The notes under the pieces are model-generated. The model was not told where the DNA came from, searched no databases, and saw only the letters and a program-made list of their open reading frames with translations. From the NCBI GenBank assembly GCA_016192455.1, contig JACPUC010000007.1, forward strand, positions 68,720-132,719: a DNA stretch of 64,000 bases. Direction: 5' to 3'. Shown piece by piece: positions 25,734 to 39,779 of the stretch. This DNA is from Candidatus Tectimicrobiota bacterium. GTDB lineage: Bacteria > JACPUC01. The translations under genes were made by a program, and so were the position numbers. Every line of letters begins with the position of its first letter. Position 1 is the first letter of the stretch.

Positions 25734-26096
25734 CTACCGCCCCAACAGACCAGCCGTGACGCTCGACTCCAACATGGCGAAATCGACCGGCTTCGTCAGG
25801 TAGTCCACCGCGCCAAGGTGCATGCCCGTCTCGCCCAGCTCCCGCTGGTGGACCGCCGTCAGGATGATCACGGCGATACCGGGACGCATCGACTTCAGGT
25901 GCTTCAGCGTTTCCATCCCGTCCATAGTGGGCATCCGGAGATCGAGCAGGACCAGGTCGGGTGGCTCCTGGCCGACCTTCTCCAGCGCCTCCTCTCCGCT
26001 CAAGGCGTAGTCGACGGTATGGCCAAGCGTCACCAGGTACGACTGCAGCACCCGACAGGCATCCACCTCATCGTCAACCACCAAGATCCGGCCCAT
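25734..26096 (-). CDS. stand-alone CheY-like response-regulator receiver protein
   Basis: From Met MGRILVVDDE. Has the phospho-acceptor Asp in LVLLDLRMP, the conserved T (ILTA) and K (LTKP). No output domain. Confidence 0.8.
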   Translation of the reverse strand: MGRILVVDDEVDACRVLQSYLVTLGHTVDYALSGEEALEKVGQEPPDLVLLDLRMPTMDGMETLKHLKSMRPGIAVIILTAVHQRELGETGMHLGAVDYLTKPVDFAMLESSVTAGLLGR

Positions 26097-26924
26097 TGCG
26101 ACATCTTTCTCCCATCGAAACCCCTCGCTCACGAAACTTCCCGGTCCATGCTCTTCACCGGTGAAAGCGCCCTCGTGCATGGCCGTCTCCCCCTCCCTGA
26201 CAGTGACCAGGCGCCCTGAAAGAGATGCGTGCGGCGCCTGGCCCTCATCCTTGCCGCAGGCGTGTGGCTGCGCGCCCGCATGACCCCTCCGGGCCCCTCG
26301 GGGCCTCTCCCCGAGGATGAAGCCGGAGGCTCAGCTCTTCCGCCGTAAACTGACGCACCGAGGCAAGGAATCTTTCTCTAGGGTGAACGATTCTTCGTCG
26401 ATTGGCAAGCTGATCCTTAGCATCTTGCCCTCCGCCTCGACGGGTGGTGAGCGGCGCCGTGGCGCTACGGCGCCATCGCCGCGAGCGTCGTCGCCGCAAG
26501 CGCGACCTTGCAGCCAGGGCATAGCCCCAAGGCGCTCACCGCCGCCCTGGGCGGGCCGTCTCCCGCCGGGCTTCCTCCCACCACTCCCCTCACTTTGCCA
26601 GTGAACCCGTCGAGTCTCCTTCCCCTCCTGCCGCCCGGCATGTTGACCGTCGGACCCAACGTGTTGCGCCTTCACTCCAGGCAACCCTCCCGGTAGGTGG
26701 CGGGAAGCCACATCTACGTGGGGGCGCAGGGGCACCATCCGCCCCCGGCGCAGCGGCTGGGCCGTGCGCGCCCCACCCCGCCGCGGTCGGCAAGAAACCG
26801 CCGCCTCTCCCCCGCCGTGGCCCAACTATTGCTTGTAGAACACACAAAGTGAAGGTTTCTTGACTTCCCAGTCGAGACGCCTTACCCCAGGAGTGGCACA
26901 CTGCGCAACGGAGAGGAGCCGACG

Positions 26925-27908
26925 GTGTTACGCCTCGACGAGAGCCCCATCATCCTCTTCGGCGGCAAGGGGGGCGTCGGAAAGACAACCTGCGCCTGCG
27001 CCGCCGCGGTCCATCTCGCCAGCCGAGGCAAGAAGACCCTCGTTATCTCAACCGACCCAGCTCATTCCCTGGGCGATAGCCTGGGGCAACGTCTGGGGGA
27101 TGAGATGACGCAGATCACGGCGCTGCCCTCCCTCACTGCTCTCGAGCTGAACGCGGCGAAGTCCCTGCGGGAGTTCAAGGAAGAGTATGAGGAGGAGATT
27201 CTCTCCCTCCTGCGCACGGGAAGCTACCTCGATGATGCCGATCTCGCCGAGATTCTCTCCCTGAGCATCCCCGGCTTGGATGAGGTGATGGGGTTCAAAC
27301 GCATCACCGATCTCCTCGCCAGCGCCCGAGCTGACCACGTTCTCATCGATACCGCCCCGACCGGCCATGCCCTGCGCCTCCTCATGATGCCGGAGCTTGC
27401 CGACCAGTGGGTAAAGGTGCTCGCAAGCCTGCGCTGGAAGTACCGCCGGATGGTCACGCAGCTCGTCGGCGGGGTGGCGGCCGAGCGCGGCGACGACTTC
27501 CTCCTTACTCTGAAGCGCAGCGTGAAACGCATGCGCACCTGGCTGCGGGATCGACGGCGCACCCAGTTTGTCGTCGTCACCATCCCGGAGTACCTGGCGG
27601 TACGCGAGACCCAACACCTCGTCGAGGAGCTGCGCGCCGCCCACGTGCCGCTGCGGCACCTGATCATCAACCACGTGCGGGCCGGCGGCGCCCTTCCCTG
27701 TCCGTTCTGCGCCGAGGCGCGCATGGCCCAGCAACCGTACATCGCCGCGCTGCGCGCCGCCTATCCCGACCTCGCGGTAACCCTCATGATCCAGGAGCCG
27801 CGCGAGGTGCGCGGCCTCAATGCCTTGCGCTGTGTGGGGCGGCAGCTCTTCGACCGGCTTGAACCTCGCGGCCTCAGCGAGCACCTCCTGCACGCACCGG
27901 CGGGCTAG
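26925..27908 (+). CDS. ArsA/Get3-family P-loop ATPase with CxxC motif
   Basis: GTG start after GGAGAGGAG RBS. Deviant Walker A GGKGGVGKTT, the ArsA/Get3 signature DTAPTGHALRLL, and a C-terminal CPFC pair as in the Get3 zinc-bridged dimer. Confidence 0.8.
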   Translation: MLRLDESPIILFGGKGGVGKTTCACAAAVHLASRGKKTLVISTDPAHSLGDSLGQRLGDEMTQITALPSLTALELNAAKSLREFKEEYEEEILSLLRTGSYLDDADLAEILSLSIPGLDEVMGFKRITDLLASARADHVLIDTAPTGHALRLLMMPELADQWVKVLASLRWKYRRMVTQLVGGVAAERGDDFLLTLKRSVKRMRTWLRDRRRTQFVVVTIPEYLAVRETQHLVEELRAAHVPLRHLIINHVRAGGALPCPFCAEARMAQQPYIAALRAAYPDLAVTLMIQEPREVRGLNALRCVGRQLFDRLEPRGLSEHLLHAPAG

Positions 27909-28009
27909 CGACGCGGCGCGGAGGCGCGAGCGGCGCAAAAGAGATGGCGCGGCAAGCGCGCCAGAGAGCCTGGAGATGCCAGCGAGCGGCGGAGGCGGAG
28001 GAAGGAATC

Positions 28010-29059
28010 ATGGGAGTGCGGCTCTACTGCATTGTTGAGAAGGCCACGGCGCCGAGCAGCGCGGTGCCGCAGCTTCCGGAGCTGGCGCTCGGCAGCATTC
28101 AGTACCGGGACCTCCTGGCGCTGACGAGTCGTGAGCTGCAGGCGGGGCTTGCCGATCTCGACGAGGCGGCGCTGCGCGAGCAGCTTGCGCGCCACCACCG
28201 GGTGAATGAGGCGGCGGCGAAGCTTGGGGCGGTGGTGCCGCTGCGGTTCGGCACCATCGCCGCCAACCACCGCGAGGTGCGGGCCCTCCTGAAGCACGGC
28301 TACATCGAGCTGCGCAGGCTGCTTGAAAAAGTGCGCGATCGGGTGGAGGTGGTGGTGCACGGGCGCCTCGACCGCGCGCTCATCCTGCACCAGATCGCCC
28401 GCCAGGATGGCGAGGTGCAGCGCCTGCGCGCCGCCCCCCCGAGCACCGATCCCGAGACCTGCCGCGAGCAGCAGATCGCCCTCGGGAAGGCGGTGTACGA
28501 GGCCATCCATGCCTATGAACGCGGCTGCATCGCGGAGGTGCGCGCACGGCTTGGCAGGCATGCGGAGGAGGCTGCGGAGGGACGCTTGCTGGCGGAGGAG
28601 ATGGTGCTGAACCTCGGCTTCCTGGTCAGGAGCTTGGAAATCCCGGCATTCCGCGCCGCCCTCGCGGAGCTCAACCGCTCGTTCGCGGGCAACCTCATCT
28701 TGACCTGGCACGGTCCCTTGCCGCCTTACAGCTTCGCGAGCCTGCAGTTCCACCACGTCGAGTTCGAGCGCATCGACGCGGCGCGGCGGAATCTGGGCCT
28801 CGACGAAGAGGCGACGACGGCGGAGATCACCACCGCCTACCACGACCTGGCGCGCCGCTTCCATCCCGACGGCGCGGGCAATGGCGAGGGCGCCGAGACC
28901 TTCAAGGAGCTGAGCGCGGCGCGGGCGATTTTGCTGCGTTACTGCCAGAACTACCGCTACTCATTCCGACGCGAGGCCGTGGCGCGCAGCGTCATCGTCC
29001 GGGCCACCGACGCGGCGGCGGACTACACGCGGAGTCTCACCTATGTCGAAGCCTCCTGA
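28010..29059 (+). CDS. GvpL/GvpF-family gas vesicle protein fused to C-terminal DnaJ J-domain
   Basis: N-terminus GVRLYCIV, NLGFLV and WHGPLPPYSF are GvpF/L hallmarks. The C-terminal ~60 aa LGLDEEATTAEITTAYHDLARRFHPDG...FKELSAARAIL carry the HPD tripeptide and helix pattern of a J-domain. Confidence 0.75.
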   Translation: MGVRLYCIVEKATAPSSAVPQLPELALGSIQYRDLLALTSRELQAGLADLDEAALREQLARHHRVNEAAAKLGAVVPLRFGTIAANHREVRALLKHGYIELRRLLEKVRDRVEVVVHGRLDRALILHQIARQDGEVQRLRAAPPSTDPETCREQQIALGKAVYEAIHAYERGCIAEVRARLGRHAEEAAEGRLLAEEMVLNLGFLVRSLEIPAFRAALAELNRSFAGNLILTWHGPLPPYSFASLQFHHVEFERIDAARRNLGLDEEATTAEITTAYHDLARRFHPDGAGNGEGAETFKELSAARAILLRYCQNYRYSFRREAVARSVIVRATDAAADYTRSLTYVEAS

Positions 29060-29828
29060 GGCCGGCGTCTACTGCTACGGCATCTGCCGCAGCTCAACCC
29101 CGCGGAGCTTCGGCCCCCTCGGCATCGGCGCGCACGGTGACGAGGTGCGGACCCTCGCCGTCGGGGAGATCGCCGCGGTGGTGAGCTGCTCGCCGGCCGG
29201 CACGTACCGCGTCTCGCGCCAGAACGTCCTGGCCCATCAGCAAGTCCTCGAGGCCGTCATGCCGCACTCGCCGGTGCTGCCGATCCGTTTCAGCACCGTC
29301 GCCGACTCCGCCGCGCAGGTCATCGCCGTTCTGGAATCCCGCTACGAGGAATTCGACCACCTCCTCGAACGCATGACGGGGAAGCATGAGCTGGGCGTGA
29401 AGGCGATCTACCGCGAGGCCGTCATCTATGCGGAGCTCGTCGAGGCTGAGCCACGCATTCAGCGCCTGAAACAACGGCTCACGGGAACGCGTCTCGAGGA
29501 GAGCTACTACCCGCGTCTCGAGCTGGGTCGCCTCGTGGAGGCCGCCCTGGCGGCGAAGCGCGAGCGGGAGGGGGCGGCTCTCCTCGCCCTCCTGGCGCCG
29601 CATGCGGTGGAGCACCGACAGGGGCGGCTGTTGCACGAGCGGATGCTCCTAAATGCGGCCTTCCTTGTCGAGAAGGCCCGGGAACGCTCCTTCGATGAGG
29701 TCGTGGAGGAGCTGTCGCGGCGACACGACGCGCGCATAGAGCTGCGGTACGTGGGCCCCATGCCGCCCTACAACTTCGTGAACCTCACGATCAACCTGCG
29801 CGCCGAGCGTGCGCCCTCGCCGCGCTAG
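29043..29828 (+). CDS. gvpF: GvpF/GvpL-family gas vesicle protein
   Basis: GVYCYGI..., LNAAFLV, YVGPMPPYNF. 261 aa. Confidence 0.75.
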   Translation: MSKPPEAGVYCYGICRSSTPRSFGPLGIGAHGDEVRTLAVGEIAAVVSCSPAGTYRVSRQNVLAHQQVLEAVMPHSPVLPIRFSTVADSAAQVIAVLESRYEEFDHLLERMTGKHELGVKAIYREAVIYAELVEAEPRIQRLKQRLTGTRLEESYYPRLELGRLVEAALAAKREREGAALLALLAPHAVEHRQGRLLHERMLLNAAFLVEKARERSFDEVVEELSRRHDARIELRYVGPMPPYNFVNLTINLRAERAPSPR

Positions 29829-29859
29829 GTTGCCTGAAGCAGCCTGGGGGAGAACTTCC

Positions 29860-30090
29860 ATGTTCCTTCTCGACGATCTTCTCCTGCTCCCTTTCCGCGG
29901 CTTGCTCGGCATCCTGAAGGAGATTCAGCGGCTCGCCGAGCAGGAGACCTCCGATCGCGCCAGGCTGCACGAGAAGTTGCTCTACGCGCAGCTCCAGTTT
30001 GAGCTCGATGAAATCACCGAGGCCGAGTACCAGCAGCGCGAGGAGGAGATTCTCCAGCGCTTGCAGCTCCTGGAAGAGGTTGAGCGCTGA
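29860..30090 (+). CDS. gvpG: gas vesicle protein GvpG
   Basis: From Met MFLLDDLLLLPFRGLLGILKEI... with an acidic coiled-coil tail, as in GvpG (~80 aa). A GGGGGAG RBS is upstream. Confidence 0.6.
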   Translation: MFLLDDLLLLPFRGLLGILKEIQRLAEQETSDRARLHEKLLYAQLQFELDEITEAEYQQREEEILQRLQLLEEVER

Positions 30091-30455
30091 TGCCGAGCAG
30101 ACGACCCAGAACCTCGGAACGGCGAGGCGGCGACAACGGCGACCTTGAGGGCGCGGCTCCTCCTCAAGGTTGCGCTGAGACGAGAGGACACCCTGCCATG
30201 CAGCTCAGAGAGGCGGGCGAGGCGGTGCGGCGGGCGCTCTCGGAGGTGCTCGCCAAGCGGGGCGAGATCGTCACCCTGCGCAGGACCGAGGAGGGGTGGG
30301 AGTCGCACGTCGAGGTAGTGGAAGAGAACGAGTACCTCAAGGCCCTCGGCAAGCATGTCGTGGATCGGAACTACTACGTGATCGAGCTCAGCGAGGCGTT
30401 GGAGGTGGTCGCCTACGACCGCCTGGCGAAGAAGCCCCCGGCACGAGAAGAGTAA
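30090..30455 (+). CDS. gvpO: gas vesicle protein GvpO
   Basis: ATG overlaps the gvpG stop (TGATG). The core LRRTEEGWESHVEVVEENEY resembles the GvpO motif LRRSDDGWRVTMDVVE. An alternative start is ATG 30198. Confidence 0.6.
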   Translation: MPSRRPRTSERRGGDNGDLEGAAPPQGCAETRGHPAMQLREAGEAVRRALSEVLAKRGEIVTLRRTEEGWESHVEVVEENEYLKALGKHVVDRNYYVIELSEALEVVAYDRLAKKPPAREE

Positions 30456-30458
30456 CGC

Positions 30459-31391
30459 ATGGCTCCCCTGCAGACCCCTGATACTCCCGCGCGCGGCCTC
30501 TACGCCTACGCTGTCCTCGAGCCCCACCGCCAACCGCCGCCTGGGGGGCCGCTTGGGGTCATCGGCATCGACGGCGCGAGCCCGGTGGAATTCGTCGGCC
30601 ATGGAGCCGTCCTGGCCGCGGTGAGCGAGGTGGCACTCGAGGAGTTCACGGGCGAGCGTCTGAAGGCCAATCTCCAGGAGATGCGCTGGCTCTCCCGCAG
30701 GGTTAGCGCCCACGAGGCCGTCGTGGAGCGCCTGATGGCATGGGGAACCCTGGCGCCCATGAAGTTCGGCACCCTCTTCTCGAGTCTCGCCGCGCTGCGG
30801 CGGTTTCTGCGCGCCTCCCATGAGGATCTGCGCGACACCCTGGCGGCGCTGCGCCTGCATGAGGAGTGGGGCGTGAAGGTCTACGGCCGTAGCCCAGCGG
30901 TGCGGACGCTGCGTCGCCGGCTGGAGGACGACCAGGAGCGCTTAGGCACGGAGCGGAGCGAGGCGGCGTCCCTGCCTGCCGGGCGCGCCTACTTCCAGCG
31001 CAAGCAAACCGAATGGGCGCTGCTGCGGGAGAGCGACGCGACCATGGAAGCCCTGGCGCGGCATATCCACGCCCTGCTCGGCGGCCAGGCGTCGCGCAGC
31101 GCGATCAGCCCCGCGCCGGGCGGCTTTCCCCTCGCTGCCGCGCCAGCGGAGCGCGGCGCGCAGGACCGTGGCGCAGAGGAGGGCGGCCCACGGGGGGGGA
31201 CGAGGGAGAGCTGGGAACTGCTCCTCAATGCAGCCTACCTCGTGCCGCTCGGTAACCGGCAGCGCTTCCTGGCCTGCGCCGCCTGGTCAAACGACCAGCA
31301 CCAGGCGCCTGGCCTGCGTCTGGCGATCACCGGCCCGTGGCCACCCTATCATTTCACCCCTTCATGCTGGAAGCGAGGTGCCCGTGTTTGA
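30459..31391 (+). CDS. gvpL: GvpL/GvpF-family gas vesicle protein
   Basis: GLYAYAV..., LNAAYLV, ITGPWPPYHF. 310 aa. Confidence 0.75.
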   Translation: MAPLQTPDTPARGLYAYAVLEPHRQPPPGGPLGVIGIDGASPVEFVGHGAVLAAVSEVALEEFTGERLKANLQEMRWLSRRVSAHEAVVERLMAWGTLAPMKFGTLFSSLAALRRFLRASHEDLRDTLAALRLHEEWGVKVYGRSPAVRTLRRRLEDDQERLGTERSEAASLPAGRAYFQRKQTEWALLRESDATMEALARHIHALLGGQASRSAISPAPGGFPLAAAPAERGAQDRGAEEGGPRGGTRESWELLLNAAYLVPLGNRQRFLACAAWSNDQHQAPGLRLAITGPWPPYHFTPSCWKRGARV

Positions 31392-31608
31392 CGACCCCAT
31401 CGTTGAGAACGAGCAGACATCGATGCGGCGCGTAAAACTCGTCGAGGTCCTCGACCGGCTCCTCAACCGCGGGGTGTACCTGGAGGGAGACCTGACGCTG
31501 GCGGTTGCCAACATCGACCTCATCTACGTCGGGCTGCGCGTCCTCGTCAGCTCAATTGAGACGGCGCAGCGGATCGCCTCCCGGAGCGGCAGTGGAGCCT
31601 GCGAGTGA
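31378..31608 (+). CDS. GvpA-family small gas vesicle protein (GvpS/GvpM/GvpJ-like)
   Basis: In-frame inside ORF 31168..31608. LVEVLDRLLNRGVYLEGDLTLAVANIDLIYVGLRVLVSSIETAQR matches the GvpA core. Start is GTG 31378 (after GAAGCGAGG) or ATG 31423. Confidence 0.75.
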   Translation: MPVFDDPIVENEQTSMRRVKLVEVLDRLLNRGVYLEGDLTLAVANIDLIYVGLRVLVSSIETAQRIASRSGSGACE

Positions 31609-31621
31609 GCTTGGAGGAAGC

Positions 31622-32380
31622 ATGAGCGGCGAACTCTACGTCTACGGCATCGTCGACAGCCGCTGCGGCCTGGCGATCGCGGGGCGCGGCATGGCCGGAG
31701 GCTCCTTGCAGCTCCTGGCCTGGCATGAGATCGGCGCCGTGGTCAGCAGCGGCGGCTCCTTCCCTCTGCGCTATGAGACCGAACACGTCCTGCACCACGA
31801 GCGCGTCCTGGAGCGGCTCATGAAGGGCCATAGCGTGCTTCCCTGTCGCTTCGACTTGCGCCTGCGGGACGAGGAGGAGGTGGCGGCGCTCCTGCAAGGG
31901 AAGTATGCCGCATTCCGGGCAAACTTGCGGCGCGTCGCGGACACGCAGGAGTGGTGCGTGAGAGCGCTGTGGGACCCCGAGGAGCTGGCCGCCTGGGAAG
32001 AGCTGTCGCCCCATGGAAGTTCTGAACGCATCAACGTCGATGTCTCGGATTCGCCTGACGGCGGCGCGGCCTACCTGCTCCGCAAGTGCCAGGCCTGGCG
32101 GCGGGAGGCGCTCCTGCATGACTTCGCCGAGACCCTCATCGAGGCGGTCCACGAGCCTCTCCAACGTCATGCCCAGGAGAGCCTCACGCGCAAGTGCCTG
32201 AGCGAGCGACTCATTCTCGCCGCCGCCTATCTGGTGCCGCGATGCCGGGCTGCCGAGTTTGTGGCCTGCTTCCGCCGCCAACGTCTGGCGTTCGCGCATC
32301 TCCAGTTTCTCCTTAGCGGACCCTGGCCGCCCAGCAGCTTCATCGACGAAGAGCTGCGGGGGCCGCTCATGGTCACCTGA
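31622..32380 (+). CDS. gvpF: GvpF/GvpL-family gas vesicle protein
   Basis: ATG after GGAGGAAG RBS. ELYVYGIV, LAAAYLV, LSGPWPPSSF. Confidence 0.75.
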   Translation: MSGELYVYGIVDSRCGLAIAGRGMAGGSLQLLAWHEIGAVVSSGGSFPLRYETEHVLHHERVLERLMKGHSVLPCRFDLRLRDEEEVAALLQGKYAAFRANLRRVADTQEWCVRALWDPEELAAWEELSPHGSSERINVDVSDSPDGGAAYLLRKCQAWRREALLHDFAETLIEAVHEPLQRHAQESLTRKCLSERLILAAAYLVPRCRAAEFVACFRRQRLAFAHLQFLLSGPWPPSSFIDEELRGPLMVT

Positions 32381-32432
32381 GACGGCTCTGCCGAGAAGGG
32401 CGCCGCGGCTGAAAAGGTAGAATGGGGGGAAC

Positions 32433-32774
32433 ATGTTTAACGAGTCGACCATTCACGGTGAGCGACTGGAGGACTTCGCCGCTGAGATGGAAAGGATCGC
32501 CAAGCCTCGCGCGCGGCGCATCAATGCAGATCCAGAGCGCGCCGAACAAGGGCTGGCCAAGCTGGTGCTGACACTCATCGAGCTGCTGCGCCAGCTCCTC
32601 GAACGGCAGGCGGTGCGGCGGGTCGAGGCCGGCAGCCTGAGCGCCGATGAGGTGGAGCGGCTGGGTCTGACGCTCATGAAGCTCGAGGCGAAGATGGAAG
32701 AGCTGAAATCCCTCTTCGGTCTGCATGATCAGGATCTCAACCTGAACCTGGGGCCGTTCGGCGATCTCCTCTAG
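32433..32774 (+). CDS. gvpK: gas vesicle protein GvpK
   Basis: GLAKLVLTLIELLRQLLERQAVRRVEAGSLSADEVERLG is the conserved GvpK core. Confidence 0.7.
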   Translation: MFNESTIHGERLEDFAAEMERIAKPRARRINADPERAEQGLAKLVLTLIELLRQLLERQAVRRVEAGSLSADEVERLGLTLMKLEAKMEELKSLFGLHDQDLNLNLGPFGDLL

Positions 32775-32867
32775 CCTGGCGGCGCACCTTCCCAGGTTGG
32801 CGCGCCGGCGCGAGAGAAACCCCTGAGGAAGGCGGCAGCGGCCCGAAGAAAGGAGTCAGGCTGGCAT

Positions 32868-32918
32868 CGAGATAAAGCATAACTTGCTCTTGGATAAGGT
32901 ACGAAACATACTTTTGTT
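32868..32918. promoter_or_regulatory. AT-rich island in otherwise GC-rich intergenic DNA (putative promoter/IHF-type region)
   Basis: GATAAAGCATAACTTGCTCTTGGATAAGGTACGAAACATACTTTTGTT lies 160 nt upstream of the strong AAGGAGGG RBS of the gene at 33081. Confidence 0.3.
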
Positions 32919-33080
32919 CTCGGCGCTGACCTGTCAGGCGATGTCGAGCGACCCCCAGGGGACGCGCGCAGGCCAGGAGGCGACGGTGCGGCGCCAGGCG
33001 TGGGAGCAGGCGGGCGCGCGGATGAGCGCGACAGATCACGCCCGCGGCGAAATCAGGAAGCTGAGTAAGGAGGGTCAACG

Positions 33081-33473
33081 ATGTCGTGGAGCACAGAGAT
33101 GCAGGCACTTCGGATGGAGATTGAGTCTTCGTTCAAGGATCGACGCCAGATGCTCCTTGGCCTGCAGCGGCGGGAGTACGCGCGCAAGGAGAGCTGCGCT
33201 GATTTCATGACGGCGCTGCACACGGCGCAGGGCGAACAGACGCGGGCGCTGTGGGCAATGCTCGGTGAGAGCCGGCGCCAGGGCCGGCAGCGTTTCAACA
33301 CGCTCATGGAGGGCTGCAAGGCGAAGCGGCGCGAACACCGCGAAATCCTCGCGGCCCTGTTCCGTTCCAGTCGCGCCAGCCTTGCGGCGCTGCGCCGCGC
33401 CTTGGAGCAGAGCGGTGAGGAGTGGCGCGCCATGCGGAGCAGAATTGCCGCGGGTGTCGGCGCGCCGCACTAG
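33081..33473 (+). CDS. hypothetical basic helical protein inside gvp cluster
   Basis: 130 aa, Arg/Glu-rich, no recognisable family. Strong RBS. Confidence 0.5.
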   Translation: MSWSTEMQALRMEIESSFKDRRQMLLGLQRREYARKESCADFMTALHTAQGEQTRALWAMLGESRRQGRQRFNTLMEGCKAKRREHREILAALFRSSRASLAALRRALEQSGEEWRAMRSRIAAGVGAPH

Positions 33474-33708
33474 GAGCTGTCGCCGGCCGTTGTGAAGTCG
33501 TGCTCCTCGACCGGGCAGGTGGAGGCGCGAGCAACAACCCGCCCTACAGTAAGCAGGGCGAGCAGCATGGGGAGAGCCACCGGTAGCGCCTCCGCTGCCG
33601 CTGCCGTGGGAGAGTCCGAAGGAGCGGCGCAGCCGACGACCGACGCCGCGCGCTCAGCGCCGTCGCCGGCTGCGCGACGTTGCGACAGAGCAGCGCGCCG
33701 TTCGCCCG

Positions 33709-33735
33709 CGTGGTTCCAGACTCGTGGTTCCAGAC
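33709..33735. repeat. tandem direct repeat CGTGGTTCCAGAC x2 (14-bp period)
   Basis: Read directly, ~110 nt upstream of the gvpJ-like start. A candidate operator. Confidence 0.4.
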
Positions 33736-33843
33736 CACGGGACCCGACACGGCAGGCGAAGCCGACAGGGGGTGTTCCCGGCCCGCGCGGGGGGTGATCT
33801 CAACGCCCACACCACGCGCCCCTGGCGCCCACCAAGGAGCTGC

Positions 33844-34152
33844 ATGGAAACCGCGCCAATAACGAGCATCTCGCACTCGACCGGGGCGGTGACGCTCGCG
33901 GACATCTTGGAGCGAGTCCTCGACAAGGGAATCGTCATTGCCGGCGACATCAGCATCTCGCTGGCTGACGTGCAGCTCCTGACGATCAGGATTCGGCTGC
34001 TCATCGCCTCTGTCGACAAGGCGCGGGAGATGGGCATCTCCTGGTGGGAAGGCGACGGCTTCCTCTCCTCGAAGGCGCGCGAGATCGAGGCGGAGAACCG
34101 CGACTTGAAGGCGCGTCTCGCCCGGCTCGAGGAGGGTTGCAACGCCTCCTGA
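33844..34152 (+). CDS. gvpJ: GvpA-family gas vesicle protein with C-terminal extension (GvpJ-like)
   Basis: ATG after AAGGAG RBS. LADILERVLDKGIVIAGDISISLADVQLLTIRIRLLIASVDKAREMGI is the GvpA/J core. A ~40-aa coiled-coil tail follows. Confidence 0.8.
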   Translation: METAPITSISHSTGAVTLADILERVLDKGIVIAGDISISLADVQLLTIRIRLLIASVDKAREMGISWWEGDGFLSSKAREIEAENRDLKARLARLEEGCNAS

Positions 34153-34344
34153 GCAGGGGCGTTGGAGGTTCCTCCCGCGGCGGGAGGAGCAGGTCCTCCT
34201 CGGCGGGGCGAGGGGCGTGGTGAGAGGTCGGCAGGAGCGGCGCGGAGCACACACAGCCGGCGCGGTAGGCCGGCAGGAGGCAGCAAGACGACACGGCTGC
34301 CGCTGTCTTCACGAGGCAGGAGTCAAGCCAGGGAGAGCGTCACG

Positions 34345-35499
34345 ATGGCGATCGAGGAGTTTCCCACACTCTTGGCGCCGCGGCAGGCGGATGGGTTTGT
34401 CGAGACGGCGTACGTCCGCGACCTCAGCACGCGCAGTCTCGCTGCCATTGAAGCCGGTTTCCCCATTCACTTCCGCGGCGTCTCCGGCAGCGGCAAGACG
34501 ACGCTGGCGATGCACGTGGCCTCCAAGGTCGGCAGGCCGGTGGTCCTCTTGCACGGCAACGAAGAGCTGAGCACGTCGGAGCTGATCGGCGGCGAACAGG
34601 GCTACCGCTTCCGCCGCGTGGTCGACCGCTTCATTCACTCGGTGCTGAAGACCGAGGAAGACCTCACGAAGCACTGGGTCGACAACCGGCTCACCATCGC
34701 CTGCAAGCACGGCTTCACCCTCGTTTACGACGAGTTCAGCCGCTCGCGCCCCGAGGCCAACAACATCCTTCTCTCCATCCTGCAGGAGAAGATTCTCGAC
34801 CTGCCGATGCTGCGAGGCCACGAGCACTACCTGAAGGTGCACCCCAACTTCACCGCCATCTTCACCAGCAACCCCGAGGACTATGCCGGCGTCTTCAAGA
34901 CGCAGGACGCCTTGCGTGACCGCATGATCACCTTCGACCTCGACTTCTTCGACCGCGCCACGGAGGCGGCGATCAGCCAGGCCAAGTCCGGCCTGCCGCT
35001 CGGCGCGGTGGAACGCATCGTCGACCTCGTGCAAGGGTTTCGACAAAGCCAGCAGTACGACTTCGCCCCCACGGTGCGGGCCTGCATCATGATCGCCAAG
35101 CTGACGCGCGTGCGCGGCGCCTCGGCGGCCGCCAACGACCCGGTGTTCCGCCAAATCTGCGCCGACGTGCTCATTTCGGAAACGAGCCGGGTGGGTCTGC
35201 ACGGCAAGAGATTGAAGGTCGATCAGATGCTGGCGCGCCTGATCGACAGGCACTGCGCGGCGGCGCCGCAGGCGAGCCAAGCGAGGAAGAGCTCTCCAGC
35301 CTCTCTCGGTCCCGAGGCGCAGAGCATGGCGGCGAACGGCCCCTCCTCGAGCAGTAGCGGTGGCTTGCAGGAGAACCGGAACCCGACCCGAGGCGCGGGG
35401 GCAAACGCACCAGCGGGACTCTGGCAGCGGCGACAGGGTGAGCCGGTTGCCCCAGCCTCGGCAGGCAATCAGGCGCCCGGCACGCACCGCCACGTTTAG
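34345..35499 (+). CDS. gvpN: gas vesicle AAA+ ATPase GvpN (CbbQ/NorQ family)
   Basis: ATG after AGGGAGAG. Walker A FRGVSGSGKTT, Walker B LVYDEFSRS, and AAA sensor regions. Typical GvpN size. Confidence 0.85.
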   Translation: MAIEEFPTLLAPRQADGFVETAYVRDLSTRSLAAIEAGFPIHFRGVSGSGKTTLAMHVASKVGRPVVLLHGNEELSTSELIGGEQGYRFRRVVDRFIHSVLKTEEDLTKHWVDNRLTIACKHGFTLVYDEFSRSRPEANNILLSILQEKILDLPMLRGHEHYLKVHPNFTAIFTSNPEDYAGVFKTQDALRDRMITFDLDFFDRATEAAISQAKSGLPLGAVERIVDLVQGFRQSQQYDFAPTVRACIMIAKLTRVRGASAAANDPVFRQICADVLISETSRVGLHGKRLKVDQMLARLIDRHCAAAPQASQARKSSPASLGPEAQSMAANGPSSSSSGGLQENRNPTRGAGANAPAGLWQRRQGEPVAPASAGNQAPGTHRHV

Positions 35500-35523
35500 G
35501 AAACCAGCAGGAGAACGTTCACC

Positions 35524-35829
35524 ATGAAGGGCCTCGCGGATCTCAAAACCGCTCGACACGTGAAGATGCGGGGTATGCCGCAGGTCGCGCAGTCTCCGCC
35601 CATCGAACTCTTCATGCTCGGCAAGCAGAAGGAGCGCCTGGAGAAGGAAGAGCAGCAGCTCCTGAAAGCCTTGCAGCGCACGCAGCACACCCTGCGACAC
35701 CTGGCGCAGCGCCTGGAGAGCCTGCGGCAGGAGATCGCCAGGGAAGGCGGCGGCGCCGCGAACGCCGAGCCAGCAGCAGGAGAGCCGCACGGCACGCGCG
35801 GCTGGCAGACGATGCCGTTAACCTACTGA
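35524..35829 (+). CDS. small coiled-coil protein (paralog of 37204..37401)
   Basis: [39 protein letters not shown] is a heptad-rich helix. It shares a QKER-L...L motif with the ORF at 37204. Confidence 0.4.
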
Positions 35830-35995
35830 GCCGTTGCGGAGCCTTGCACTCTCGAAGCGCAGGCAGGCGTCGGAGCGTAACCAAGACGAACGAGCACGCC
35901 GCACGGAGTGCGTGCGGAAACGTGGCAAAGGCATCGGTGTGGGGAGGCCACACAACTCTCAGGAGACTGAGAACCACCTTTGGAGGAATCGAATC

Positions 35996-36211
35996 ATGGC
36001 AGTCGAAAAAGCAATCGGGTCATCGAGCCTGGTCGAAGTGGTCGACCGCATCCTGGACAAGGGCATCGTCATCGACGCCTGGGTGAGAGTCTCCCTCGTG
36101 GGGATCGAGCTCCTGGCAATCGAAGCCCGCGTCGTCGTCGCGGGTGTCGACACGTATCTGAAGTACGCCGAGGCCATCGGCCTGACGGCCACGGCCGCCG
36201 CGCCCGCGTAG
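35996..36211 (+). CDS. gvpA: major gas vesicle structural protein GvpA
   Basis: [63 protein letters not shown] is nearly identical to canonical cyanobacterial GvpA. A GGAGG RBS lies 9 nt upstream. Confidence 0.9.
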
Positions 36212-36258
36212 CGGGTGGCCCATCTTCCTGGACGCCGCCCGCGGGCGCAGGCGAGGGG

Positions 36259-36338
36259 GGGTTAGGCACTGCGGTTTCCCCCACCGATTCCCAGGTTCGG
36301 GTCCACTTTGCAGGATCAACCCGAGCACTGCCTAACCC
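36259..36338. repeat. long-range inverted repeat GGGTTAGGCACTGC / GCACTGCCTAACCC (14-bp arms, 1 mismatch, 52-nt loop) downstream of gvpA
   Basis: Read directly 48 nt after the gvpA stop. No T-tract follows. Possible terminator or processing structure. Confidence 0.45.
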
Positions 36339-36587: not shown

Positions 36588-37139
36588 ATGAGTCGGCGCA
36601 AGACGAGCGGCCCAGCGGGGCTCGGTGGCGTCTTCAAGGGTATCGCCTCGTTCATCGACCTCCTCGTTGACCTCACCGAGGAGGGTGCAGGCAAAGAGGA
36701 GGACAGCACCGAGGAGGGCAAGGGGATCAAGCGGTCGCGGGAGTTCCGCGGCGCCACGGCGAGCGGCAAAGAGTTTCGCGGCGTGTACGGGTTTTCGGTG
36801 CGGATGGGACTGGGCGGGCCGGAGGTGGAGACGTTCGGCAACCTCCACCCCGCCGACGAGGGCGCCGTGGTGGAGGAACGCCGCGAGCCCCTGGTCGACG
36901 TCTTCGATGAGGGGCAAAGCCTGCAGGTGGTGGTGGAGCTGCCGGGGGTGGAGGAGGAGAGCATTGATGTTCGCCTCGCCGACGATGTCCTCATCCTCTC
37001 CACCGAGCGCGGCGCCCGCAAGTACTACAAGGAGGTGCTGCTGCCCGCGCCGGTGGAGGCGCAGAGCCTGGTCCGCACCTACCGCAACGGCATCTTCGAG
37101 GTGCGCCTGCAGAAGCGAGCCGAGCCGCCGCGGGAGTGA
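36588..37139 (+). CDS. Hsp20/alpha-crystallin family small heat-shock protein (GvpH-like)
   Basis: ATG after AAGGAGA. Alpha-crystallin domain VDVFDEGQSLQVVVELPGVEEESIDVRLADDVLILSTERG...GIFEVRL. Confidence 0.8.
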   Translation: MSRRKTSGPAGLGGVFKGIASFIDLLVDLTEEGAGKEEDSTEEGKGIKRSREFRGATASGKEFRGVYGFSVRMGLGGPEVETFGNLHPADEGAVVEERREPLVDVFDEGQSLQVVVELPGVEEESIDVRLADDVLILSTERGARKYYKEVLLPAPVEAQSLVRTYRNGIFEVRLQKRAEPPRE

Positions 37140-37613: not shown

Positions 37614-39779
37614 TCACGTTGACCGATCACTAGCGCCACGCCGCCAAGGGCGCAGCGCCTCGTCGAAGTGGCGCCCGGAGATGCGCAAGGAGCCAGCCCC
37701 GTCATCGGCGGCGTTGCGGCCGCGCAGGAATTCCCGCACGGCGCACATCCCGGCCTCGCGGCAGAGGGCCTCAATCTGCGCTCCCTGCCAACCGCTGGTG
37801 GCGAGGACCAGCGCCGCCAGATCGACATCGGCGCTTAGCGGCATGCGGCGGGTGTGCACCTCGAGAATCTCCCGCCGCCCCTCATCATCCAGGGGCCCCA
37901 CCTCGAGCTGCAGGTCGAAGCGCCCGGAGCGCAGCAGCGCCGGATCGACCATATCAATGCGGTTCGTGGTGGCCAGGACGATCACCCCCTTCTGGCTCTC
38001 GATGCCGTCAAGCTCGGTAAGGAGCTGGCTGACCACCCGCTCGGTGACGCCGGCGCTCTCGCCGTGCCCGCGCACCGGCGCCAGGGCGTCGATCTCATCG
38101 AAGAAGAGGATGCACGGCGCCGCCTGCCGGGCTTTGCGGAAGAGCTCCCGCACGCCCCGCTCCGCCTCGCCCACCCACTTGGAGATGAGCTCCGGCCCCT
38201 TCACGGAGATGAAGTTGATCTGGCACTCCGTGGCGACGGCCTTCGCCAGCAGGGTCTTGCCGCAGCCGGGAGGGCCGTAGATGAGGATGCCCTTCGGAGG
38301 GCGCAGGTGCGCCTCCTCGAACAGCCGCCGGTGGCGCAGCGGCCACTCGATGTTCTCCTGCAACCACTGTTTCGTCGCCGCCAGGCCACCCACATCGTCC
38401 CAGCTCACGTTCGGCACCTCAAGGGAGACCTCCCGCAAGCCCGAGGGCTCGACCTCCCGCAGGGCCGCCAGGAAGTCGTCGCGCCCCACCCGCAGATCGA
38501 GGAGCTCCTCGTAGGGGATGCGCTGGCTCTCAAAGTCGACCCGCGGCAGGAGGCGGCGCAGGGCCACCATGGCGGCTTCGCGGCAGAGGGCCTGGAGATC
38601 GGCGCCGACGAAGCCAAGGGTGAGCTGGGCGAACTCCTGCAGGTCCACCTCCTCGGAGAGCGGCATGCCGCGGGTGTGGATCTCGAGGATACGCTGGCGC
38701 CCGGTGGTGTCGGGCACGCCGATGACGAGCTCGCGGTCGAACCTCCCCGGGCGGCGCAGGGCCGGGTCGAGGGCGTTCGGGATGTTCGTGGCGCCGATCA
38801 CGATCACCTGGCCGCGCTCGCGCAGACCGTCCATGAGCGCTAGAAGCTGCGCCACGACGCGCTTCTCCACCTCGCCGATGGCCGTCTCCCGCTTCGGCGC
38901 GATGGCATCAATCTCATCCAGGAAGAGGATGCTGGGCGCCTGCTTGCTTGCCTCGTCGAAGAGCTTGCGCAGCTTCGCCTCGCTCTCGCCGTAGAACTTG
39001 TGGATGACCTCCGGCCCGTTGACCGCGAGGAAGTGGGCTTCGGTCTCGTGCGCCACGGCGCGGGCGATGAGGGTCTTGCCGCAGCCCGGCGGGCCGACCA
39101 GGAGCACGCCCTTGGGGGCGTCGATGCCAAGGCGCTCGAAGACCTGCGGGTGCTTCAACGGCAGCTCGATCATCTCGCGGATGCGCTGCACCTCCCGCCC
39201 CAGGCCGCCGATGTCGTCATACGTCGTCTTTGCCGGGCTGGGACGCGCTCCTTTCTCGTGGGCGATACTGAGAACGGTGGTGGGGTGCACCACCACGGCG
39301 CCGTCCGGGATCGTCTCGGCGACGAGGAAGTCATAGGAGCGCGCCCCGAAAAGGTTGGCCCGCACCGTATCCCCCCTGGTCACCGGCAGGCCCTCCATGA
39401 GGCGCACCAGGTAGCGGTGATCGCGCTCCGACAGGGGGCTGCGCAGAAGCGTGCGCGGGTTCAGCGTGATCTTGGCGGCGGCCTGGCAGGCGGTTTTCTC
39501 CACCAGCACCTTCTCGTCCAGCCCCACCTTGGCGTTGCCGCGCACCAGGCCATCGATCTGCACCAGGCGCTGGCCGCGCTCGGCGGCAAAGGCCGGCATC
39601 GCCTTCGCCACGGTCTGCTGCTTGCCCGTAATGCGCACGACATCGCCCACCGCCACATCGAGCTCCTTCATATCCGCCGGATCGAGGCGGGCGATGCCGC
39701 GGCCGACATCCTTGGAATGCGCCTCCACAACACGGAGCTGCAAGCTGGCCTGGGGTTCGGCCTCGGGCGCCATACTCAT
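37614..39779 (-). CDS. Cdc48/VCP/VAT-like double AAA+ ATPase
   Basis: N-terminal double-psi/Cdc48 domain, then two AAA modules, each with Walker A GPPGCGKT, Walker B DEID and second-region-of-homology motifs. Convergent with the gvp operon. Confidence 0.85.
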   Translation of the reverse strand: MSMAPEAEPQASLQLRVVEAHSKDVGRGIARLDPADMKELDVAVGDVVRITGKQQTVAKAMPAFAAERGQRLVQIDGLVRGNAKVGLDEKVLVEKTACQAAAKITLNPRTLLRSPLSERDHRYLVRLMEGLPVTRGDTVRANLFGARSYDFLVAETIPDGAVVVHPTTVLSIAHEKGARPSPAKTTYDDIGGLGREVQRIREMIELPLKHPQVFERLGIDAPKGVLLVGPPGCGKTLIARAVAHETEAHFLAVNGPEVIHKFYGESEAKLRKLFDEASKQAPSILFLDEIDAIAPKRETAIGEVEKRVVAQLLALMDGLRERGQVIVIGATNIPNALDPALRRPGRFDRELVIGVPDTTGRQRILEIHTRGMPLSEEVDLQEFAQLTLGFVGADLQALCREAAMVALRRLLPRVDFESQRIPYEELLDLRVGRDDFLAALREVEPSGLREVSLEVPNVSWDDVGGLAATKQWLQENIEWPLRHRRLFEEAHLRPPKGILIYGPPGCGKTLLAKAVATECQINFISVKGPELISKWVGEAERGVRELFRKARQAAPCILFFDEIDALAPVRGHGESAGVTERVVSQLLTELDGIESQKGVIVLATTNRIDMVDPALLRSGRFDLQLEVGPLDDEGRREILEVHTRRMPLSADVDLAALVLATSGWQGAQIEALCREAGMCAVREFLRGRNAADDGAGSLRISGRHFDEALRPWRRGASDRST

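What the first reader, a model, noticed from the sequence alone, without database searches (positions are those of the whole stretch)
26925..27908. Get3/ArsA-type ATPase with Get3-like CxxC as first gene of the gvp operon
The protein has the deviant Walker A GGKGGVGKTT, the family-defining DTAPTGHALRLL switch, and a C-terminal C-P-F-C pair as in the zinc-bridged Get3 dimer. Get3 captures hydrophobic tail-anchor segments. GvpA-family proteins are small, extremely hydrophobic and amphipathic. A dedicated Get3-like holdase or targeting factor for gas-vesicle shell proteins is a testable new function for bacterial Get3 homologs.
Basis: partly seen in the sequence, partly recalled or inferred. Interest (0 to 1): 0.7.

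Follow-up and report, generated by a model that had tools for sequence, protein, structure and literature searches.

The report
Get3-like ATPase built into gas-vesicle clusters
A single-domain, Get3-type (not arsenic-pump) ATPase with the zinc-bridge CxxC is a conserved, dedicated gene of a widespread type of gas-vesicle gene cluster, usually wedged between a small heat-shock protein and a CDC48 unfoldase, which makes it a strong candidate chaperone for the very hydrophobic vesicle shell proteins; the ArsA–gas-vesicle link itself was already noted in 2010.

Summary
Window 26925-27908 (+) encodes a 327-aa ArsA/Get3-family ATPase with an intact P-loop, Switch I and Switch II. Its C259-P-F-C262 aligns exactly with the zinc-binding CxxC of solved Get3 structures. 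It lies directly upstream of a complete gvp cluster in a Candidatus Tectomicrobia MAG.

It is not an ars remnant. The three As(III)-binding cysteines are absent and no ars genes are nearby. All 50 best structural neighbours are Get3/TRC40.

Every close relative I examined is embedded in a gvp cluster: 18/18 genome loci, 7/7 sampled database homologs and the 91% ortholog. These include MAGs labelled Planctomycetota, Omnitrophota, Nitrospirota, Nitrospinota and Bacteroidota. The usual order is Hsp20-ArsA-CDC48-GvpL/F::J-domain, sometimes with overlapping genes. All of these relatives keep the CxxC.

"First gene of the operon" is a local rearrangement. The idea is also only partly new. Castillo & Saier (2010) reported arsA homologues in gvp operons, but only two-domain forms, without the CxxC/Get3 reading. 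Farkas et al. (2019) list no bacterial single-domain CxxC group.

A dedicated gas-vesicle role is well supported. The holdase or targeting mechanism for GvpA-type proteins is plausible but untested.

The parts
26818..26833 (+). Candidate sigma-54 (-24/-12) promoter TGGCCCAACTATTGCT, about 90 nt upstream of the ArsA start
   Evidence: It has one mismatch to TGGCAC-N5-TTGCW and is conserved in the 91% ortholog L048. The whole upstream region is 89% identical, and the number of such matches in the window does not exceed chance. This is a candidate only. A sigma-54 activator flanks the cluster.
26925..27908 (+). Single-domain Get3/ArsA-family ATPase, 327 aa, GTG start. NCBI labels it 'ArsA family ATPase' MBI3090075.1, Candidatus Tectomicrobia
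26961..26990 (+). Deviant Walker A / P-loop GGKGGVGKTT (residues 13-22)
   Evidence: It is invariant in 39 aligned homologs.
27048..27068 (+). Switch I STDPAHS (residues 42-48)
27270..27284 (+). Get3-type PGLDE motif at the position of ArsA Cys113/Cys422 (residues 116-120)
   Evidence: Alignment with a genuine ArsA and three Get3 structures.
27348..27383 (+). Switch II DTAPTGHALRLL (residues 142-153)
27360..27548 (+). Extended helices 7 and 9 of the helical (client-binding) subdomain, residues 146-208. Includes the clade-invariant W162, R170-W-K-Y-R174 and D190-D191, with F192 nearly invariant
   Evidence: AF2 model. The segment is a constant 64 aa, against 38-52 in ArsA and 68-73 in Get3. The helices are amphipathic and their hydrophobic positions are conserved.
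27699..27710 (+). C259-P-F-C262, at the position of the Get3 zinc-bridging CxxC
   Evidence: It is conserved in 18/18 single-domain gvp-linked genome loci including L048 and in 120/120 database homologs.
28010..29059 (+). GvpL/F fused to a C-terminal J-domain (HPD present)
   Evidence: Pfam GvpL_GvpF 1.7e-47 and DnaJ 1e-9. The start comes from independent gene calls. The fusion is conserved in relatives.
29043..29828 (+). GvpL/F
29860..30090 (+). GvpG, with an N-terminal hydrophobic helix
30090..30455 (+). GvpO-like (start uncertain; possibly 30198)
30459..31391 (+). GvpL/F
31423..31608 (+). GvpA-family protein (GvpJ/M-like)
31622..32380 (+). GvpL/F
32433..32774 (+). GvpK
33844..34152 (+). GvpA-family protein (GvpJ-like)
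34345..35499 (+). GvpN (AAA_5 ATPase)
35996..36211 (+). GvpA, the major shell protein, and the most hydrophobic segment in the cluster
   Evidence: It is 88-94% identical to the GvpA of relatives.
36588..37139 (+). Hsp20/GvpH-like small heat-shock protein. In relatives it is the gene immediately upstream of ArsA
37614..39779 (-). CDC48-family double-AAA ATPase. In relatives it is the gene immediately downstream of ArsA; here it is inverted at the far end of the cluster
   Evidence: TIGR01243 at 911 bits.

Best explanation
**What it is.** The gene encodes a homodimeric Get3-type ATPase that is a dedicated accessory component of gas-vesicle formation. It is not an arsenic pump subunit.

**Proposed mechanism (inferred).**
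- Two subunits are bridged by a zinc ion held by the two CxxC pairs.
- ATP binding closes the dimer, so the extended amphipathic helices 7 and 9 of the two subunits form a composite binding surface.
- That surface shields an aggregation-prone hydrophobic segment of a gas-vesicle protein. The most likely clients are the beta-hairpin of the GvpA/GvpJ family or the N-terminal helix of GvpG.
- The client is held soluble until ATP hydrolysis releases it at the growing vesicle.
- The ATPase works as part of a chaperone module encoded by the same cluster: an Hsp20/GvpH holdase, a CDC48-type unfoldase and a GvpL/F protein carrying a J-domain that would recruit Hsp70.

**Shown here.**
- Family membership, intact catalytic motifs and CxxC homology.
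- Absence of the arsenic site and of ars genes.
- Conserved, often translationally coupled, embedding in gvp clusters of at least six phyla.

**Inferred only.** Zinc binding, dimerisation, the identity of the client and the order of events.
For: **Family and fold.**
- Full-length Pfam and NCBIfam matches.
- The AF2 model has pLDDT 81.6 and pTM 0.81.
- Its 50 best PDB neighbours are all Get3/TRC40. Archaeal TRC40 3zq6 is best, at TM 0.75-0.83.
- The CxxC aligns with the Get3 zinc site.

**Not an arsenic pump.**
- ArsA Cys113, Cys172 and Cys422 are replaced by Gly, Tyr and Gly.
- arsD, ACR3, arsC and arsR flank only the distant homologs that lack CxxC and gvp genes, never the window or the gvp-linked loci.

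**Helical subdomain.**
- The Switch II-to-strand segment is 64 aa, of the Get3 type (ArsA 38-52, Get3 68-73).
- Helices 7 and 9 are amphipathic with conserved hydrophobic periodicity.

**Synteny.**
- 18/18 genome loci at 46% identity or more, 7/7 sampled database homologs and the 91% ortholog lie in gvp clusters.
- The order is Hsp20-ArsA-CDC48-GvpL/F::DnaJ.
- Genes overlap by 4-10 nt in L052, L054, L055 and L057.

**CxxC tracks gvp linkage.** CxxC is present in 34/37 gvp-linked loci and 0/9 others (p = 2e-7, not corrected for relatedness).

**Biological need.** GvpA aggregates through its hydrophobic beta2 strand and causes proteotoxic stress unless assembly factors are present first (PMC12848028).
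Against: - There is no experimental datum on this protein or any ortholog.
- No cluster-encoded protein has a classical C-terminal tail anchor. The best 19-residue Kyte-Doolittle means are 1.7-1.9, in GvpA, the GvpJ-like proteins and GvpG.
- The helical subdomain is poorer in methionine than Get3 (about 3 against about 7 per segment).
- The AF2 model shows only a 6-residue loop where Get3 has the helix-8 lid.
- The subdomain carries an invariant charged/aromatic RWKYR motif plus DD (with F192 nearly invariant). This fits a specific protein partner at least as well as a generic hydrophobic groove.
- From general knowledge, the model gvp systems of Halobacterium, Bacillus megaterium, Serratia and Anabaena flos-aquae form vesicles without any ArsA homolog. 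The role must therefore be accessory.
- Deep nodes of my NJ tree are unsupported.
Confidence: 0.45

Rival explanations
1. It is a nucleotide-dependent switch or adaptor rather than a holdase. In this reading the dimer binds a specific folded partner through the invariant RWKYR/DDF surface. Candidates are the adjacent Hsp20, CDC48 or a GvpL/F nucleator. ATP binding and hydrolysis would then gate a step such as nucleation, hand-over of substrate to CDC48, or disassembly and recycling of collapsed vesicles. This is the 'energises a biogenic step' idea of Castillo & Saier made more specific.
For: - The helical subdomain has invariant charged and aromatic residues and is low in methionine.
- There is no helix-8 lid in the model.
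- Adjacency to Hsp20 and CDC48 is strict, and the genes sometimes overlap.
- Alpha-crystallin domains are fused to other bacterial Get3 homologs (Farkas 2019 Group 6).
- Two of the four relatives' Hsp20s tested just reach the ArsA_HSP20 Pfam threshold.
Against: - The fold and the extended amphipathic helices 7 and 9 are those of client-binding Get3.
- The ArsA_HSP20 hits are marginal, and the general HSP20 model scores higher. The window's own Hsp20 scores 15.7 against a cutoff of 22.5.
- In this window, ArsA, Hsp20 and CDC48 are no longer adjacent.
Confidence: 0.3
2. It is a redox- or stress-activated, ATP-independent holdase. As described for yeast Get3 (general knowledge; holdase activity is noted in PMC6593721), oxidation of the CxxC would release zinc. 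That would convert the dimer into a general chaperone that protects cells from aggregating vesicle proteins under stress.
For: - The CxxC is strictly conserved.
- It co-occurs with Hsp20 and a J-domain protein.
- Farkas et al. raise a general chaperone role for bacterial homologs.
Against: - The P-loop, Switch I and Switch II are all invariant, which argues that ATPase activity is retained and under selection.
- The CxC motif listed in Farkas Table 1, which from memory contributes to yeast Get3's redox switch, was not found at that position. The window protein's only other cysteines are C23, C25 and C303.
- Many hosts are anaerobes (inference from the MAG taxa).
Confidence: 0.1
3. It is a general tail-anchored membrane-protein targeting factor, or an ars-operon remnant, that merely happens to lie next to the gvp genes.
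For: - The sources annotate it as 'arsenite-transporting ATPase' or 'ArsA family ATPase'.
- The 101-nt spacer leaves room for separate transcription in this window.
Against: - Synteny with gvp genes is conserved across at least six phyla in every locus examined.
- The As-binding cysteines are absent.
- No ars genes are nearby, whereas true ars operons were readily detected next to distant homologs by the same search.
- No terminator follows the gene.
Confidence: 0.03

Closest known systems
gvp-associated ArsA homologues of Castillo & Saier 2010 (their Clusters 4 and 6; PMC2963123). These probably correspond to Farkas et al. 2019 Group 8 (tandem with CxxC) and Group 7 (cyanobacterial tandem without CxxC).
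   Same: - Both are encoded inside gas-vesicle clusters together with gvpN/L/F/G/J/K and hsp20, with no arsR or arsB.
- Both lack the ArsA metalloid cysteines.
- My loci L017-L045 recover such tandem forms in gvp clusters, mostly with CxxC in both halves.
- They share the K-(Y/H)-R and DDF signatures with the window protein.
   Different: - Those proteins are two-domain fusions of about 600-680 aa. The paper states that gvp-linked forms are two-domain.
- The window protein and its clade are single-domain (312-333 aa) and must homodimerise.
- They occupy a different, strictly conserved slot between Hsp20 and CDC48.
- The 2010 paper did not note the CxxC or propose chaperoning of hydrophobic Gvp proteins.
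Archaeal Get3/TRC40 with CxxC (M. thermautotrophicus 3ZQ6, M. jannaschii 3UG6; Farkas Group 12)
   Same: - Both are single-domain with a C-x-F-C at the same position.
- They share PG(I/L)DE, DTAPTGH and the extended helices 7 and 9.
- They are the best structural matches, at TM 0.75-0.83 and 30-32% identity.
   Different: - The helix 7-9 segment is shorter (64 against 73-76 aa in the alignment) and has fewer methionines.
- The window clade has invariant RWKYR and DDF motifs that Get3 lacks.
- The genomic context is a gas-vesicle cluster, and no tail-anchored client is evident.
- Bacteria are not known to have a Get1/2-type receptor.
Eukaryotic Get3/TRC40 (yeast, human)
   Same: - Both have a deviant Walker A SIMIBI ATPase domain and a zinc-bridging CxxC at the dimer interface.
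- Both have a helical client-binding subdomain.
   Different: - Sequence identity is only about 28-30%.
- No GET pathway partners (Get1/2/4/5, Sgt2) are present.
- The clade is methionine-poor and the model shows no helix-8 lid.
- The presumed client is a non-membrane protein shell.
ArsA arsenite-efflux ATPase (E. coli R773 type; here Comamonas plasmid L053)
   Same: They share the superfamily, the P-loop and the DTAPTGH switch.
   Different: - ArsA is a tandem two-domain protein.
- It has Cys113/172/422, which are absent here.
- Its helix 7-9 segment is short (38-52 aa).
- It is encoded with arsR, arsD, arsB/ACR3 and arsC.
- The window protein scores 135 bits against the 650-bit cutoff of the ArsA equivalog model.
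Get3d / NosAFP-type bacterial Get3 homologs with a C-terminal alpha-crystallin domain (Farkas Group 6; PDB 3IGF/8EGK; PMC10248533)
   Same: - Both are bacterial Get3-fold proteins associated with an alpha-crystallin (Hsp20-type) module.
- In Get3d the module is fused. In the relatives of the window protein it is encoded by the adjacent gene.
   Different: - Similarity is weak: 3igf at E 1e-7 over the N-terminal half only, and NF050088 at 60 bits against a cutoff of 325.
- Group 6 lacks CxxC.
- That group has no known gvp linkage.

Membership tests
Get3/TRC40 (functional family) | SIMIBI-class ATPase core with deviant Walker A, Switch I (DPAH) and Switch II (DTAPTGH) | tested here: met
   The motifs are at residues 13-22, 42-48 and 142-153 and are invariant in 39 homologs. 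TIGR00345 scores 241 bits against a cutoff of 135.
Get3/TRC40 (functional family) | CxxC at the dimer interface that coordinates one zinc ion per homodimer | tested here: inconclusive
   The motif is present and aligns exactly with the Get3 CxxC. It is conserved in all orthologs. Zinc binding and dimerisation cannot be tested with these tools.
Get3/TRC40 (functional family) | TRC40-insert / extended helices 7-9 forming a hydrophobic, methionine-rich client groove with a helix-8 lid | tested here: inconclusive
   The segment is 64 aa, against 38-52 in ArsA and 68-73 in Get3, and has 3.2 Met against 6.7. Helices 7 and 9 are amphipathic. The AF2 model shows only a 6-residue loop instead of helix 8.
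Get3/TRC40 (functional family) | Overall fold closest to solved Get3 structures | tested here: met
   The top 50 Foldseek PDB hits are all Get3/TRC40, with TM up to 0.83, and none is an ArsA chain.
Get3/TRC40 (functional family) | Tail-anchored membrane-protein clients and Get1/2 (WRB/CAML) receptor and Get4/5 binding | tested here: not met
   No cluster protein has a C-terminal transmembrane-type segment. Residues that bind the receptor and pre-targeting factors were not examined. From general knowledge, these partners are not known in bacteria. Farkas Table 1 lists 'No' for all bacterial groups.
ArsA arsenite-efflux ATPase | Tandem two-domain polypeptide of about 580-600 aa | tested here: not met
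   The protein has a single domain of 327 aa with one P-loop.
ArsA arsenite-efflux ATPase | Metalloid-binding Cys113, Cys172 and Cys422 | tested here: not met
   The aligned residues are Gly, Tyr and Gly. TIGR04291 scores 135 bits against a cutoff of 650.
ArsA arsenite-efflux ATPase | Encoded in an ars operon (arsR/D/B or ACR3/C) | tested here: not met
   No ars gene is found in the 64-kb window or in any gvp-linked locus. The same search found such genes beside L035, L037, L038, L042 and L043.
gvp-associated ArsA homologues (Castillo & Saier 2010) | Encoded within a gas-vesicle gene cluster, without arsR | tested here: met
gvp-associated ArsA homologues (Castillo & Saier 2010) | Two-domain architecture of about 600-640 aa, as stated by the authors | tested here: not met
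   The window protein has a single domain. [quoted passage not shown]

The most novel reading that the evidence does not exclude
Hsp20, the Get3-like ATPase, CDC48 and the J-domain-bearing GvpL/F together form a dedicated 'GET-like' proteostasis and delivery pathway for a non-membrane target. The pathway would capture, extract or recycle the extremely hydrophobic GvpA-family shell proteins and deliver them to the gas-water interface of a growing vesicle. That would give bacterial Get3 homologs, whose function was called 'currently unclear' in 2019, their first physiological client. It would also show that Get3-type hydrophobic-client handling exists outside tail-anchored membrane insertion.
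Probability: 0.3. Interest if true: 0.8.

Novelty: new variant of a known kind. Interest (0 to 1): 0.58.

Why it matters
**For gas vesicles.** Gas vesicles are under intense development as acoustic reporter genes, and their heterologous expression is limited by GvpA aggregation and proteotoxicity (PMC12848028). The conserved four-gene chaperone-type block (Hsp20, Get3-like ATPase, CDC48, J-domain GvpL/F) is uncharacterised. It occurs in gvp clusters of many uncultivated lineages. It is an obvious set of candidate helper genes for improving expression, and a handle on how the hydrophobic shell protein is kept soluble before assembly.

**For the Get3 field.** This gives a concrete, testable client system for bacterial Get3 homologs. 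It also adds an architecture (bacterial, single-domain, CxxC) that the 2019 survey did not list.

**For annotation.** Sources currently label these proteins 'arsenite-transporting ATPase', which is wrong for this clade.

Tried and rejected
1. **ars remnant.** Rejected by the cysteine alignment and by the absence of ars genes. True ars operons beside distant homologs served as a positive control.
2. **Chance adjacency.** Rejected by synteny in every locus examined.
3. **Terminator between ArsA and gvpL/F.**
   - The only terminator-like site is on the minus strand.
   - The spacer hairpin at 27945-27963 has no T-tract.
   - The spacer folds no better than shuffles, z = -0.68.
4. **Sigma-54 promoter.**
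   - There is a one-mismatch box at 26818-26833, conserved in the ortholog.
   - The window-wide match count is below the chance expectation, and the ortholog is too close to be informative.
   - I kept it as a candidate only.
5. **tblastn with the isolated J-domain.** This was too insensitive. I replaced it with Pfam scans and precomputed domain calls.
6. **Hsp20 as a specific 'ArsA_HSP20' family member.** The hits are marginal (25.1, 22.8, 19.8 and 15.7 bits against a cutoff of 22.5), and the general HSP20 model scores higher. This is a hint, not a finding.
7. **NJ phylogeny.**
   - The first attempt timed out.
   - The second gave the expected grouping but weak deep support, so I make no strong claim about sister groups.
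8. **Rfam and tRNA scans.** Neither found anything in the window.
9. **Dimer or complex prediction with a zinc site or a client.** I did not attempt this. The structure tool takes single chains and returns no coordinates.
10. **Literature.** No paper holds both 'gas vesicle' and 'Get3', or both 'Tectomicrobia' and 'gas vesicle'.
Full report
**1. Observation**

- The ORF at 26925-27908 (+) is present as described. It has a GTG start preceded by GGAGAGGAG and encodes 327 aa.
- Gene callers on independent assemblies report the identical 327-aa product.
- NCBI holds it as MBI3090075.1, 'ArsA family ATPase [Candidatus Tectomicrobia bacterium]'.
- It matches Pfam ArsA_ATPase end to end at 7e-69. It matches NCBIfam TIGR00345 (TRC40/GET3/ArsA) at 241 bits against a cutoff of 135.
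- Against a 91%-identical ortholog (L048), pN/pS is 0.20 and GC3 is 0.83. It is a real gene under purifying selection.
- Downstream on the same strand are GvpL/F::J-domain, GvpL/F, GvpG, GvpO, GvpL/F, a GvpJ-like gene, GvpL/F, GvpK, an unknown, a second GvpJ-like gene, GvpN, an unknown, GvpA and Hsp20.
- A CDC48-type AAA ATPase and a sigma-54 activator lie on the opposite strand beyond them.

**2. Get3-like or ArsA-like?**

- HMMER alignments to solved structures place the CPFC exactly on the zinc-binding CxxC of S. pombe Get3 (CPQC), M. thermautotrophicus TRC40 (CEFC) and M. jannaschii Get3 (CDFC).
- I fetched a genuine arsenical-pump ArsA from a Comamonas plasmid ars operon, arsR-arsC-arsD-arsA-ACR3-arsC-arsH.
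- That protein has Cys exactly at 113, 172 and 422. In a joint alignment the window protein has Gly, Tyr and Gly there. Like Get3, it carries PG(L/I)DE where ArsA has the cysteine.
- It scores 135 bits against the 650-bit cutoff of the ArsA equivalog model.
- The segment between Switch II and the next beta-strand contains the TRC40-insert of Get3. Its length by group:
  - exactly 64 aa in every single-domain gvp-linked protein;
  - 38-52 aa in genuine ArsAs;
  - 68-73 aa in the three Get3 structures.
- An AlphaFold2 model built from 39 homologs has pLDDT 81.6 and pTM 0.81.
- All of its 50 best PDB neighbours are Get3/TRC40 chains. Archaeal TRC40 is first, at TM 0.75-0.83, and there is no ArsA chain among them.
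- The protein is therefore Get3-like in sequence signatures and fold.
- There are differences from canonical Get3:
  - about 3 methionines in the segment against about 7;
  - a 6-residue loop in the model where helix 8 (the lid) would be;
  - a clade-invariant R170-W-K-Y-R174, D190-D191 and W162, with F192 nearly invariant, on helices 7 and 9.
- Those helices are nevertheless amphipathic with conserved hydrophobic periodicity.

**3. Is the gvp linkage more than chance?**

- A scan of one genome per species returned 47 loci. I searched their flanks with the window's own Gvp proteins.
- All 18 loci at 46-51% identity are single ArsA genes inside gvp clusters. They come from Pirellulales, Phycisphaerae, Sedimentisphaerales and other Planctomycetota.
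- Their conserved same-strand order is GvpA ... GvpN-(unknown)-(GvpJ-like)-Hsp20-ArsA-CDC48-GvpL/F::J-GvpL/F-(GvpL/F)-GvpG-GvpO-GvpL/F-GvpJ-(GvpL/F)-GvpK-GvpJ-like.
- Seven database homologs sampled from other lineages show the same block. They are MAGs labelled Omnitrophota, Nitrospirota, Bacteroidota and Nitrospinota, plus three unnamed.
- In L054 and L055, Hsp20 and ArsA overlap by 10 nt. In L052 and L057, ArsA and CDC48 overlap by 4 nt. Both suggest translational coupling.
- The 91% ortholog has the window's own arrangement: hemE, hemH, response regulator, ArsA, GvpL/F::J.
- The window's order is therefore a rearrangement of the common one. The block from ArsA onward comes first, the GvpN-GvpA-Hsp20 block follows, and CDC48 is inverted at the end.
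- "First gene of the operon" is a local feature.

**4. CxxC conservation**

- All 18 single-domain gvp-linked genome loci (17 at 46-50% identity plus the 91% ortholog L048) have C-x-F-C at the same offset.
- All 120 best database homologs have a CxxC there, and 118 of them are C-x-F-C.
- More distant homologs (30-42% identity) are mostly tandem two-domain proteins, also inside gvp clusters. Their hosts are Methylococcaceae, Halochromatium, Thiohalocapsa, Acidobacteriota, Gemmatimonadales, a clostridial isolate and an Altiarchaeota MAG.
- Fifteen of these 19 tandem forms carry CxxC in both halves. A sixth (L018) is cut by the contig end. Three lack the motif.
- The nine homologs without gvp neighbours have no CxxC. 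Five of them sit in real ars operons.
- CxxC against gvp linkage is 34/37 against 0/9, p = 2e-7. Relatedness is not corrected, so this is descriptive.
- A neighbour-joining tree puts the window protein with its ortholog (100%), inside the single-domain gvp group.
- It also puts all gvp-linked forms, together with the cyanobacterial L022/L025 and the single-domain L044 that show no gvp genes in the fetched flanks, apart from the Get3 clade (97%) and the ArsA lineage. Deep nodes are weak.
- The K-(Y/H)-R and DDF signatures are shared by single-domain and tandem gvp-linked forms and are absent from Get3 and ArsA.

**5. Transcript structure**

- The next gene most likely starts at ATG 28010, which leaves 101 nt.
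- No +-strand terminator lies between the genes. The spacer hairpin has no T-tract and no unusual stability.
- A sigma-54-type box, TGGCCCAACTATTGCT, lies about 90 nt upstream of the start. It is conserved in the ortholog, but this is weak evidence.
- Co-transcription is likely here. It is close to certain in relatives, where the genes overlap.

**6. What was already known**

- Castillo & Saier 2010 (PMC2963123) reported arsA homologues in gvp operons of Nostoc/Anabaena, Pelodictyon, Polaribacter, Geobacter uraniireducens and an acidobacterium.
  - They stated that gvp-linked forms are two-domain proteins of about 600 aa.
  - They did not discuss the CxxC.
- Farkas et al. 2019 (PMC6593721) surveyed Get3-like proteins.
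  - They list bacterial tandem forms with CxxC (Group 8) and cyanobacterial tandem forms without it (Group 7).
  - They call their functions 'currently unclear'.
  - They list no bacterial single-domain CxxC group, and they do not mention gas vesicles.
- No paper in the library contains both 'gas vesicle' and 'Get3'.
- The ArsA-gvp association is therefore known.
- Three things appear to be undescribed: the single-domain CxxC clade, its Get3-type reading, and its fixed place in an Hsp20-ArsA-CDC48-J-domain block.

**7. Mechanism**

- *Best-supported reading:* a zinc-bridged homodimeric Get3-type ATPase dedicated to gas-vesicle formation.
- The most likely activity is nucleotide-gated shielding of an aggregation-prone hydrophobic segment of a GvpA-family protein or GvpG. 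These hold the most hydrophobic stretches in the cluster.
- It would act together with the co-encoded Hsp20, CDC48 and J-domain protein.
- The need for such chaperoning has experimental support elsewhere. GvpA aggregates through its beta2 strand and is toxic unless assembly factors are present first (PMC12848028).
- *Main rival:* the dimer is a nucleotide switch or adaptor that binds a specific folded partner (Hsp20, CDC48 or GvpL/F) through the invariant RWKYR/DDF surface.
- The sequence data do not decide between these two.
- From general knowledge, the well-studied model clusters make vesicles without any ArsA homolog. The role must therefore be accessory.

**8. Verdict**

The dedicated gvp role is strong. 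The holdase mechanism is plausible but untested. The claim of a new function is partly anticipated by the 2010 paper.
- I rate it a new variant of a known kind, of moderate to good interest.

Noticed in passing
window 28010-29059 (+); also L049 13542-14591, L051 13376-14401, L052 13398-14531, L054-L057: A GvpL/F protein is fused to a C-terminal J-domain with an intact HPD motif. It lies directly after CDC48 in relatives and directly after ArsA in the window. This implies Hsp70 recruitment to the gas-vesicle assembly machinery. I found no paper describing it in the searches I ran.
   Followed up: partly
window 37614-39779 (-); L001-L016, L020, L023, L049-L057 next to ArsA: A CDC48-family double-AAA ATPase (TIGR01243, 911 bits) is a conserved member of these gvp clusters, immediately downstream of ArsA. 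In the window it is inverted at the far end. It could act as an unfoldase or segregase for shell proteins or collapsed vesicles.
   Followed up: partly
L051 15677-16771; L052 15929-16969: A Volactin-family (PF25216) actin-like gene lies inside the gvp clusters of a Nitrospirota and a Bacteroidota MAG, between GvpL/F genes. It is absent from the window.
   Followed up: no
L057 8863-9312: A small protein with a weak DnaJ-type CXXCXGXG zinc-finger hit lies just upstream of Hsp20 in one gvp cluster. This is another chaperone-like element.
   Followed up: no
L049 8380-8547, L050 4668-4835, L054 8930-9106, L055 8934-9113: A 55-59-aa MazE/AbrB-like (PF04014) gene is conserved directly after GvpN in several clusters.
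   Followed up: no
window 26925-39779 as a whole: The window comes from a Candidatus Tectomicrobia MAG (MBI3090075.1) and carries a complete gas-vesicle cluster. No paper in the library mentions Tectomicrobia together with gas vesicles.
   Followed up: partly
window 35524-35829 (+) and 33081-33473 (+): There are two unknown ORFs inside the cluster. The 101-aa coiled-coil protein has 28-32% identical counterparts between GvpN and Hsp20 in Planctomycetota loci. The 130-aa protein has no detectable counterpart in any fetched locus and no Pfam or NCBIfam hit.
   Followed up: partly
window 25734-26180 (-), 39916-41430 (-); L049 497-4571; L057 1-3270: Stand-alone response regulators and a sigma-54-dependent response regulator flank the cluster in the window and in the Omnitrophota and L057 clusters. 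This suggests conserved two-component, sigma-54 control of this cluster type.
   Followed up: no
L022 (filamentous cyanobacterium CCP5) and L025 (Halomicronema): The cyanobacterial tandem ArsA homologs lack CxxC and show no gvp genes within the fetched flanks. In L022 a CDC48 gene lies divergently upstream. They may represent the Farkas Group 7 proteins with variable gvp linkage.
   Followed up: no
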